A stretch of DNA of 64,000 nt from Escherichia coli (GTDB lineage Bacteria; Pseudomonadota; Gammaproteobacteria; Enterobacterales; Enterobacteriaceae), in the NCBI RefSeq assembly GCF_046105845.1, contig NZ_CP151004.1. One strand, written 5' to 3'. Positions 57,947 through 58,183 of the stretch are shown here, piece after piece. The first letter of the stretch is position 1. Every line of letters starts with the position of its first letter. A program made the translations under genes and the position numbers. A model generated the notes under the pieces. That model ran no database searches. It was not told where the DNA came from and saw only the letters and a program-made list of their open reading frames with translations.

Positions 57947-57976
57947 CTTCTTCTTTGCCTGCTCATCCCTTTCTGA

Positions 57977-57992
57977 CAGCAGAAATCATGCC
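57977..57992 (-). promoter_or_regulatory. Candidate sigma54 promoter for zraSR
   Basis: Reverse strand ggcatgatttctgctg carries GG-N10-GC spacing of the -24/-12 element. Confidence 0.5.
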
Positions 57993-58044
57993 ATCTTTTA
58001 TCAGCGCTTACCCTGCGCTGTAACACAAAGGCTTAAGTTTCAAT

Positions 58045-58090
58045 GAGTAAAAATGACTCGCTACCCGCAGCAGGCGAGTCATTTTTACTC
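58045..58090. promoter_or_regulatory. Perfect 17-bp inverted repeat, presumed ZraR enhancer site
   Basis: gagtaaaaatgactcgc - 12 bp spacer - gcgagtcatttttactc, centred between divergent sigma54 promoters. Confidence 0.6.
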
Positions 58091-58132
58091 GCCTATTGCG
58101 TCAGATTGCCCGTCATATCAGCGTTTCGTCGT

Positions 58133-58148
58133 TGGCACGGAAGATGCA
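58133..58148 (+). promoter_or_regulatory. Sigma54 promoter for zraP
   Basis: tggcacggaagatgca matches TGGCAC-N5-TTGCA about 35 nt upstream of zraP. Confidence 0.6.
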
Positions 58149-58183
58149 ATACCCGAAGTAAGACAACCACTGGAGGATTAACC

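What the first reader, a model, noticed from the sequence alone, without database searches (positions are those of the whole stretch)
57947..58183. Divergent sigma54 promoter pair with a perfect 17-bp inverted repeat between zraS and zraP
A perfect palindrome (gagtaaaaatgactcgc / gcgagtcatttttactc, 12-bp spacer) sits between a textbook -24/-12 element facing zraP and a weaker one facing zraSR. This is the expected enhancer geometry for the ZraR activator. It is known biology, but a clean example worth confirming is intact in this strain.
Basis: partly seen in the sequence, partly recalled or inferred. Interest (0 to 1): 0.3.

Follow-up and report, generated by a model that had tools for sequence, protein, structure and literature searches.

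The report
Known ZraR enhancer between zraP and zraSR
This is the already characterised control region of the E. coli zinc/envelope-stress system: two binding boxes for the activator ZraR sit between two back-to-back sigma-54 promoters. It is intact in this strain and ordinary.

Summary
Window 57947-58183 is exactly the zraS-zraP intergenic region. It holds a perfect 17-nt inverted repeat (58045-58061 / 58074-58090, 12-nt spacer). A -24/-12 element faces zraP (TGGCACGGAAGATGCA, 58133-58148) and a poorer one faces zraSR (TGGCATGATTTCTGCT, 57993-57978, minus strand).

The repeat and both promoters are base-for-base identical to E. coli K-12. In K-12, published sigma-54 ChIP-seq finds both promoter motifs, and the strongest ZraR ChIP-exo peak maps to window 58054-58086, the centre of the repeat. 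ZraR, ZraS and ZraP are full length.

One refinement. Across 41 loci from about ten enterobacterial genera, four conserved islands appear: the two promoters and two 15-bp boxes (G-R-GT-N7-AC-Y-C) set 31-33 bp apart. The spacer sequence and perfect arm-to-arm complementarity are not conserved, and there is no covariation. The element is therefore best read as two ZraR dimer sites in inverted orientation, about three helical turns apart, not as a hairpin.

Minor new points:
- Escherichia has lost about one helical turn (~11 bp) between the proximal box and the zraP promoter.
- This strain carries 8 substitutions in that unconstrained segment.

Verdict: already known; low interest.

The parts
55248..56573 (-). 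zraR: sigma-54-dependent response regulator (enhancer-binding protein), 441 aa, intact
   Evidence: NCBIfam ZraR equivalog, 995 bits against a cutoff of 760. GAFTGA motif at residue 216, Walker A at 169, Asp56, C-terminal helix-turn-helix. Residues 141-441 match PDB 1OJL ZraR, E 2e-178. 5 substitutions against K-12 in the first 393 aa.
56570..57946 (-). zraS: sensor histidine kinase, 458 aa, intact. Its periplasmic domain allele differs from K-12.
   Evidence: NCBIfam ZraS equivalog, 885 bits against a cutoff of 479. Compared with K-12.
57967..57967 (-). Predicted zraSR transcription start, giving a 21-nt leader
   Evidence: Inferred from the GG at -25/-24 (57992/57991). The 21-nt distance equals the value tabulated for K-12 in PMC4591121. 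Not mapped here.
57978..57993 (-). Sigma-54 promoter of zraSR: TGGCAT-GATTT-CTGCT
   Evidence: Identical to ChIP-seq motif OS39 in K-12. Unchanged in 35 of the 41 loci; five have one substitution and one (Pluralibacter) is degenerate.
58045..58061 (.). Left arm of the inverted repeat, containing ZraR box L (core GAGTAAAAATGACTC, 58045-58059, centre 58052)
   Evidence: Box centre at -85 from the zraS start and -107 from the zraP start.
58062..58073 (.). 12-nt spacer between the arms; neither its sequence nor its exact length is conserved
   Evidence: It varies within E. coli. It is 12-14 nt with unrelated sequence in other genera.
58074..58090 (.). Right arm of the inverted repeat, containing ZraR box R (core GAGTCATTTTTACTC, 58076-58090, centre 58083)
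   Evidence: Box centre at -76 from the zraP start and -116 from the zraS start. ZraR ChIP-exo peak_9 of K-12 maps to 58054-58086.
58092..58128 (.). Variable segment between box R and the zraP promoter, presumed to be the looping DNA
   Evidence: All 8 differences from K-12 lie here. Variable among Escherichia lineages, not conserved across genera, and about 11 bp shorter in Escherichia.
58133..58148 (+). Sigma-54 promoter of zraP: TGGCAC-GGAAG-ATGCA
   Evidence: Identical to ChIP-seq motif OS38 in K-12. At most two substitutions in 40 of the 41 loci (Pluralibacter is the exception).
58159..58159 (+). Predicted zraP transcription start, giving a 25-nt leader
   Evidence: Inferred from the GG at 58134/58135. 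The 25-nt distance equals the value tabulated for K-12. Not mapped here.
58172..58176 (+). zraP ribosome-binding site, GGAGG
   Evidence: Read directly from the sequence, 7 nt before the ATG.
58184..58609 (+). zraP: periplasmic chaperone and signalling modulator, 141 aa, intact
   Evidence: NCBIfam ZraP equivalog, 274 bits against a cutoff of 200. 2 substitutions against K-12.

Best explanation
The 237-bp spacer is the shared control region of the ZraPSR envelope-stress and zinc-responsive system.

The proposed mechanism is as follows. ZraS senses periplasmic Zn2+/Pb2+ or envelope stress and phosphorylates ZraR. ZraR dimers occupy two dyad-symmetric boxes (G-R-GT-N7-AC-Y-C), centred at 58052 and 58083. 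The boxes are 31 bp (about three helical turns) apart and lie in inverted orientation, which is what makes the 17-bp 'palindrome'. From these sites ZraR assembles into an AAA+ hexamer. By looping the DNA it contacts sigma-54 RNA polymerase waiting in closed complex at either of two divergent -24/-12 promoters. ATP hydrolysis then opens the promoter.

The stronger promoter drives zraP. The weaker one drives zraSR, which gives positive autoregulation. ZraP feeds back negatively on ZraS.

Basis of each step:
- Shown here: the sequence elements, their identity to K-12, their conservation and spacing, and the intactness of the three genes.
- Shown in the literature on identical K-12 sequence: sigma-54 binding, ZraR binding at the repeat, and ZraR-dependent zinc induction of both operons.
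- Inferred: two dimers rather than one, hexamer assembly on the DNA, looping, and use of one enhancer by both promoters.
For: - Gene identities.
- Perfect inverted repeat and both promoters located.
- 229 of 237 positions are identical to K-12, with every functional element unchanged.
- Sigma-54 ChIP-seq motifs OS38 and OS39 in K-12 are identical to the two window motifs.
- ZraR ChIP-exo peak_9 (signal-to-noise 73, the strongest of the ZraR rows retrieved from the supplement) maps to window 58054-58086, the centre of the repeat.
- Genomic SELEX: 81 of 86 ZraR-selected clones came from this spacer.
- A zraR knockout in zinc lowers zraP by log2 12.7 and zraS by log2 3.2.
- Conservation: in 41 loci from Escherichia, Salmonella, Citrobacter, Klebsiella, Kosakonia, Kluyvera, Phytobacter, Trabulsiella and Pluralibacter, conservation is concentrated in four sharp islands: the two promoters and the two boxes.
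- Spacing: boxes are 31-33 bp apart. The distance from the zraS promoter to box L is fixed at 50-52 bp (49 bp in Pluralibacter, whose promoter call is unreliable).
- Each box keeps an invariant GT-N7-AC core with symmetric degeneracy at positions 2 and 14. This is the same core reported for sites of the related activator NorR.
- The 56-bp query spanning the element (58040-58095) is single-copy in E. coli genomes. The whole spacer is present in 5419 of 5426 complete genomes.
Against: - No experiment was done on this strain. ZraR and sigma-54 binding are carried over from K-12, although on identical sequence.
- The original footprinting paper (Leonhartsberger et al. 2001, PMID 11243806) is not in the held library, so exact footprint limits could not be checked.
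- One secondary source tabulates a single ZraR binding site, not two.
- No IHF-like site above background lies between the boxes and the promoters. How a loop forms over only about 50-60 bp is therefore not explained.
- In plain LB, zraS expression does not depend on ZraR (log2 -0.02). A basal promoter must exist, but the sigma-70 scan found none in 57850-58300.
- rpoN lies outside the window.
Confidence: 0.93

Rival explanations
1. The whole 46-bp repeat is a single binding site: one ZraR dimer, or one oligomer, with one subunit per 17-bp arm, rather than two independent dimer sites.
For: A secondary compilation lists one ZraR binding site. ChIP-exo gives one peak spanning the inner halves of both arms. 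The overall two-fold symmetry is well kept in E. coli.
Against: Each arm has its own internal dyad (GAGT-N7-ACTC). Its GT-N7-AC core is invariant across genera and its degenerate positions are symmetric. That is the architecture of a NorR dimer site. The box centres are 31-33 bp apart and the spacing varies. By inference from Fis-type helix-turn-helix dimers such as NtrC, that is too far and too variable for one dimer. Arm-to-arm complementarity falls to 12-16 of 17 in most other genera.
Confidence: 0.05
2. The inverted repeat works as a base-paired structure: a DNA cruciform, an RNA hairpin or a terminator.
For: As a single strand it would fold very stably: -18.1 kcal/mol, z = -8.35 against shuffles.
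Against: It lies upstream of both predicted start sites, so neither promoter transcribes it. There is no T-run and no terminator call, and no Rfam family in 50000-64000. Across 13 genera there is no covariation beyond chance: 260-287 of 500 shuffles reach the observed values. Substitutions break complementarity rather than compensate. The arms are conserved as sequences while the loop length varies.
Confidence: 0.01
3. The repeat is the operator of some other regulator, and ZraR activates from elsewhere in the spacer.
For: No footprint could be read here. A second ZraR ChIP-exo peak lies at the zraP start codon, window 58174-58199.
Against: The strongest ZraR ChIP-exo peak is centred on the repeat. 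Apart from the two promoters, the only other strongly conserved sequences in the spacer are the two boxes. They sit at positions typical of bacterial enhancers (-76 to -116).
Confidence: 0.01

Closest known systems
zraP-zraSR (formerly yjaI-hydHG) intergenic region of E. coli K-12
   Same: Same locus, same length (237 bp). The inverted repeat, spacer, both -24/-12 elements, both leaders and the ribosome-binding site are identical. In K-12, sigma-54 and ZraR binding were mapped to the same sequences.
   Different: There are 8 substitutions, all in 58092-58128 between box R and the zraP promoter. Only 206 of 5419 E. coli genomes are at least 99% identical to this allele across the spacer. My recollection of the 2001 abstract, which I could not verify, is 'two inverted repeats separated by a 14-bp spacer'. 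That matches reading the boxes as 16-mers at 58045-58060 and 58075-58090.
NorR enhancer sites upstream of norVW
   Same: The sites are inverted repeats with a GT-N7-AC core, bound by an NtrC-family enhancer-binding protein upstream of a sigma-54 promoter. Each ZraR box has the same invariant GT-N7-AC core.
   Different: NorR uses three sites and an IHF site, and activates one promoter. Here there are two sites, no IHF-like site above background, and two divergent sigma-54 promoters.
AtoC site at atoDAEB (AtoC is the closest paralogue of ZraR; 507 bits)
   Same: An inverted arrangement of two identical sites upstream of a sigma-54 promoter (two inverted 20-bp sites forming a 40-bp palindrome).
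   Different: The AtoC arms abut with no spacer, the sequence is different, and it serves a single promoter.
NtrC sites at glnAp2
   Same: From established knowledge, not tested here: two dyad-symmetric dimer sites about three helical turns apart (about -140 and -108), from which a phosphorylated response regulator oligomerises and activates by looping.
   Different: Different recognition sequence, greater distance from the promoter, one target promoter, and additional weak sites.
FhlA enhancer between the divergent hyc and hyp operons
   Same: One activator and one enhancer consensus serve divergent sigma-54 operons (table in PMC4987338).
   Different: Different activator class (GAF domains that sense formate, not a two-component receiver) and a different site sequence.

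Membership tests
Sigma-54 (-24/-12) promoter | GG and GC dinucleotides exactly 10 bp apart within TGGCAC-N5-TTGCW | tested here: met
   zraP: TGGCACGGAAGATGCA, 10 of 11. zraS: TGGCATGATTTCTGCT, 9 of 11.
Sigma-54 (-24/-12) promoter | Correct orientation and a short distance to the start codon of the gene served | tested here: met
   Predicted leaders of 25 nt (zraP) and 21 nt (zraS), the same distances as tabulated for K-12.
Sigma-54 (-24/-12) promoter | Conserved in orthologous loci | tested here: met
   Both motifs, including their N5 spacers, are almost unchanged in nearly all of the 41 loci from about ten genera (Pluralibacter is degenerate).
Sigma-54 (-24/-12) promoter | Bound by sigma-54 holoenzyme; transcription depends on rpoN | not testable with these tools
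   Published ChIP-seq peaks OS38 and OS39 in K-12 lie on identical motifs. Nothing was measured for this strain.
Enhancer (upstream activating sequence) of an NtrC-family activator | Dyad-symmetric sites roughly 70-150 bp upstream of the start site | tested here: met
   Box centres at -76 and -107 for zraP, and -85 and -116 for zraS. Each box is GAGT-N7-ACTC.
Enhancer (upstream activating sequence) of an NtrC-family activator | A cognate activator with receiver, AAA+ (GAFTGA) and helix-turn-helix domains encoded at the locus | tested here: met
   ZraR equivalog; GAFTGA, Walker A, Asp56 and helix-turn-helix; match to PDB 1OJL.
Enhancer (upstream activating sequence) of an NtrC-family activator | Sites conserved as sequences, with near-integral helical spacing between them | tested here: met
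   Spacing is 31 bp in 26 sequences, 32 in 14 and 33 in 2 (41 loci plus the window). Box cores are invariant while the spacer is not.
Enhancer (upstream activating sequence) of an NtrC-family activator | Bound by the activator and required for activation | not testable with these tools
   K-12 ChIP-exo peak_9 maps to 58054-58086 and genomic SELEX selects this spacer. No mutagenesis data could be accessed.
Characterised K-12 zraP-zraSR control region | Sequence identity of all functional elements and flanking genes | tested here: met
   229 of 237 identical, with the differences outside the elements. ZraP has 2 and ZraR 5 substitutions.
Intrinsic terminator or structured RNA | G+C-rich stem followed by a T-run, or covarying base pairs, or a match to an RNA family | tested here: not met
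   No terminator call, no covariation beyond shuffles, no Rfam match.
IHF-assisted sigma-54 promoter | An IHF site (WATCAANNNNTTR) between enhancer and promoter | tested here: not met
   The best matches have 2 mismatches. Background for that is 1.8 per 237 bp in this window. The intervening DNA is not conserved.

The most novel reading that the evidence does not exclude
The zra circuit may be tuned lineage by lineage through its unconstrained parts. Escherichia has moved the proximal ZraR box one helical turn closer to the zraP promoter (56-57 bp against 67-69 bp in other genera). This strain's lineage carries a rare allele with 8 clustered substitutions in that same looping segment. E. coli also holds two deeply divergent ZraS sensor-domain alleles. 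Together these could change the gain of the circuit, or the balance between zraP and zraSR output, or even signal specificity, relative to the K-12 reference on which all experiments rest.
Probability: 0.12. Interest if true: 0.3.

Novelty: already known. Interest (0 to 1): 0.08.

Why it matters
It matters little beyond annotation. The result confirms that this strain has a complete and apparently functional ZraPSR module, with the reference enhancer and promoters.

The cross-genus comparison gives a cleaner definition of the ZraR box than the E. coli palindrome suggests: G-R-GT-N7-AC-Y-C, two copies 31-33 bp apart, with a spacer that is free to vary. That could help in predicting ZraR targets or in designing zinc and lead biosensors built on the zraP promoter.

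The one-turn deletion in Escherichia is a small natural experiment on helical phasing at a short-range bacterial enhancer.

Tried and rejected
- Original footprint paper: I tried to read Leonhartsberger et al. 2001. It is not held. Three literature searches for a quoted footprint or box sequence found none.
- Hairpin or cruciform reading: the strong predicted fold is not backed by covariation, a terminator signature or an Rfam family. Rejected.
- IHF site in the looping segments: nothing above background.
- Sigma-70 promoter for basal zraSR expression: none found with the consensus scan in 57850-58300. The source of ZraR-independent basal zraS transcription stays open.
- Repetitive or mobile element: rejected. 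The 56-bp query spanning the repeat (58040-58095) is single-copy per genome and chromosomal.
- Further ZraR boxes in the window: only the two exact matches. Hits with 2 mismatches are at chance level (5 found, 2.8 expected).
- The 11-nt direct repeat TATCAGCGCTT / TATCAGCGTTT (57999-58009 and 58116-58126): not conserved across genera. Treated as chance.
- Other high-scoring sigma-54-like motifs in the window: checked against the main-text table of PMC4591121 and not found there.

Full report
**Observation**

Window 57947-58183 is exactly the spacer between two divergent genes. The zraS start codon ends at 57946 on the minus strand, and the zraP ATG is at 58184. The three genes are unambiguous: the products match the NCBIfam equivalogs for ZraP (274 bits, cutoff 200), ZraS (885, cutoff 479) and ZraR (995, cutoff 760).

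The arms are 58045-58061 (GAGTAAAAATGACTCGC) and 58074-58090 (GCGAGTCATTTTTACTC), 17 nt each, 100% complementary, with 12 nt between them. It is the only spaced perfect inverted repeat of this size in the 64-kb window. From base composition, about 1.5e-4 such repeats are expected by chance.

A scan for GG-N10-GC motifs against TGGCAC-N5-TTGCW finds two in the spacer:
- TGGCACGGAAGATGCA at 58133-58148 on the plus strand, 10 of 11, pointing at zraP.
- TGGCATGATTTCTGCT at 57993-57978 on the minus strand, 9 of 11, pointing at zraS.

Only 22 motifs scoring 9 of 11 or better occur in the whole window on both strands.

**Comparison with the reference strain**

The window comes from E. coli. The spacer is present in 5419 of 5426 complete E. 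coli genomes. Aligned with K-12 MG1655 (locus), 229 of 237 positions are identical. All eight differences fall in 58092-58128, between the right arm and the zraP -24 element. The repeat, its spacer, both promoters, both leaders and the ribosome-binding site are unchanged.

Six E. coli alleles spanning 91.6-100% identity were aligned:
- Both arms are invariant.
- The 12-nt spacer varies at two positions.
- The promoter cores are invariant.

**Published evidence on the same sequence**

- Sigma-54 ChIP-seq in K-12 lists TTGGCACGGAAGATGCA upstream of zraP (score 39, PSSM 12.3, distance 25). It lists ATGGCATGATTTCTGCT upstream of zraS (score 9, PSSM 11.4, distance 21) (PMC4591121). Both are identical to the window motifs.
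- ZraR ChIP-exo in K-12 grown with 1 mM ZnCl2 gives its strongest retrieved peak (peak_9, signal-to-noise 73) at 4201786-4201818 (PMC7657598 supplement). Matching that sequence against the window places it at 58054-58086, centred on the repeat.
- Genomic SELEX with purified ZraR recovered this spacer in 81 of 86 clones (PMC8249747).
- Deleting zraR in zinc lowers zraP by log2 12.7 and zraS by log2 3.2. This also supports calling the zraSR promoter the weaker one.

The primary footprinting paper (PMID 11243806) is not in the held library. My memory of its abstract, 'two inverted repeats separated by a 14-bp spacer', is unverified. It fits reading the boxes as 16-mers at 58045-58060 and 58075-58090.

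**Phylogenetic footprint**

A ZraP alignment retrieved 42 loci from one-genome-per-species contigs. They cover Escherichia, Salmonella, Citrobacter, Klebsiella, Kosakonia, Kluyvera, Phytobacter, Trabulsiella and Pluralibacter. All have a divergent zraS 234-265 bp upstream of zraP. One locus (L046) lacked an ATG at the expected zraP start and was left out, so 41 loci were analysed.

Conservation is concentrated in four sharp islands, which are the zraS promoter, box L, box R and the zraP promoter; only a few short, weaker patches lie between them. The promoters are kept almost letter for letter, including their N5 spacers.

Each box keeps an invariant G.GT...AC.C frame, with transitions tolerated at positions 2 and 14, giving G-R-GT-N7-AC-Y-C. 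The inner AAAAATG / CATTTTT is also conserved.

Spacings measured:
- Box to box: 31 bp in 26 sequences, 32 bp in 14, 33 bp in 2 (41 loci plus the window).
- zraS promoter to box L: 50-52 bp throughout, apart from 49 bp in Pluralibacter.

The sequence between the boxes is unrelated from genus to genus. Arm-to-arm complementarity is 17 of 17 in the window and in seven of the 41 loci, spread over Escherichia, Kosakonia, Salmonella and Kluyvera. It falls to 12-16 of 17 in the rest.

**What the repeat is**

The footprint shows two protein-binding boxes in inverted orientation, not a structure.

- A formal count of the 17 arm-to-arm pairs over 13 genera finds no covariation beyond chance: 260-287 of 500 shuffles reach the observed values.
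- The strong predicted single-strand fold (-18.1 kcal/mol, z -8.35) is therefore a by-product.
- There is no terminator signature and no Rfam family.
- The repeat lies upstream of both predicted start sites.

The GT-N7-AC core is the one reported for NorR dimer sites (PMC2831303). I therefore read each box as one ZraR dimer site. The two sites are about three helical turns apart, as with NtrC at glnAp2 (established knowledge, not tested here). Because the pair has overall two-fold symmetry, it presents the same face to both promoters.

**Geometry**

Taking GG as -25/-24, the predicted start sites are 58159 for zraP (25-nt leader) and 57967 for zraS (21-nt leader). These match the distances tabulated for K-12. 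The box centres then lie at -76 and -107 for zraP, and at -85 and -116 for zraS.

In every other genus the distance from box R to the zraP promoter is 67-69 bp. The exception is Pluralibacter, at 50 bp, where the promoter call is unreliable. In Escherichia the distance is 56-57 bp. This is a loss of about one helical turn, which would keep the face of the helix.

No IHF-like site above background lies in either looping segment.

**Is the system intact?**

Yes, as far as sequence can tell.
- ZraP is 141 aa with 2 substitutions against K-12.
- ZraR is 441 aa with 5 substitutions in the 393 residues compared. It has Asp56, Walker A, GAFTGA and the C-terminal helix-turn-helix. Residues 141-441 match the ZraR crystal structure 1OJL at E 2e-178.
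- ZraS is full length, but carries a different periplasmic-domain allele from K-12 (see the items noticed in passing).

**Open points**

- Basal zraS expression in LB does not depend on ZraR (log2 -0.02), yet no sigma-70-like promoter was found in the spacer.
- A second ZraR ChIP-exo peak in K-12 maps to the zraP ribosome-binding site and start codon (58174-58199). I cannot explain it.
- Whether two dimers or one larger unit occupy the repeat has not been shown directly in anything I could read. One compilation counts a single site.

**Verdict**

This is already known biology, and it is intact in this strain.

The refinements are modest:
- A cross-genus definition of the ZraR box.
- Evidence that perfect 17-bp complementarity is not the selected feature.
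- A one-turn deletion specific to Escherichia.
- A strain-specific cluster of substitutions in unconstrained looping DNA.

Interest is low.

Noticed in passing
window 57353-57826 (zraS codons 41-198, minus strand): ZraS here (458 aa) differs from K-12 ZraS (465 aa) at 70 aligned positions. 66 of them, including 7 indel positions, fall in the periplasmic sensor domain; the cytoplasmic part is nearly identical. E. coli is dimorphic for this segment. 4183 genomes carry the window-type allele at 95% identity or better, and 1236 carry a K-12-type allele at only 60-80% nucleotide identity. The laboratory reference is therefore the minority type. One literature search found no description of this.
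   Followed up: partly
window 58092-58128: All 8 differences from K-12 in the spacer cluster in this 37-bp stretch between box R and the zraP promoter. The stretch is a variation hotspot among Escherichia lineages. Only 206 of 5419 genomes are at least 99% identical to the window across the whole spacer.
   Followed up: partly
window 58091-58132, compared with loci L011-L045: Escherichia species have 56-57 bp between box R and the zraP -24 element. Other genera have 67-69 bp. The difference is about one helical turn.
   Followed up: partly
window 58174-58199: A second ZraR ChIP-exo peak in K-12 (peak_8, signal-to-noise 34, 4201673-4201698) maps onto the zraP ribosome-binding site and start codon. 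That is downstream of the predicted start site, where no ZraR box exists. It may be a cross-link through the looped polymerase complex. Unexplained.
   Followed up: no
window 52291-52328: A 38-bp near-perfect palindrome (GCGTTAGCTGAGTTTTTCGCGAAAAATTCAGCTAACGC; its 24-nt arms overlap and are 96% complementary). It lies between a sequence I recognise, from memory, as a PurR-type operator (GCGCAAACGTTTTCGT, 52238-52253) and the ATG at 52362. By synteny with K-12 that gene should be purH; I did not confirm this. No Rfam family matches it.
   Followed up: no
window 43735-43720 (-), 42836-42851 (+), 30698-30713 (+): Three other motifs match the sigma-54 consensus at 10 of 11 positions. None appears in the main-text table of the K-12 sigma-54 ChIP-seq paper. 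I did not determine what genes they lie in.
   Followed up: partly
window 63739-63839 (+), 50202-51743 (-), 50044-50116 (-): A TPP riboswitch, a 16S rRNA gene and a tRNA gene, all above Rfam gathering scores. These are ordinary features.
   Followed up: no
L019 (Kosakonia arachidis), upstream of zraS: The sequence AGAAATCATG, which covers most of the zraS -24/-12 element, is duplicated in tandem just downstream of the promoter, towards zraS (alignment).
   Followed up: no
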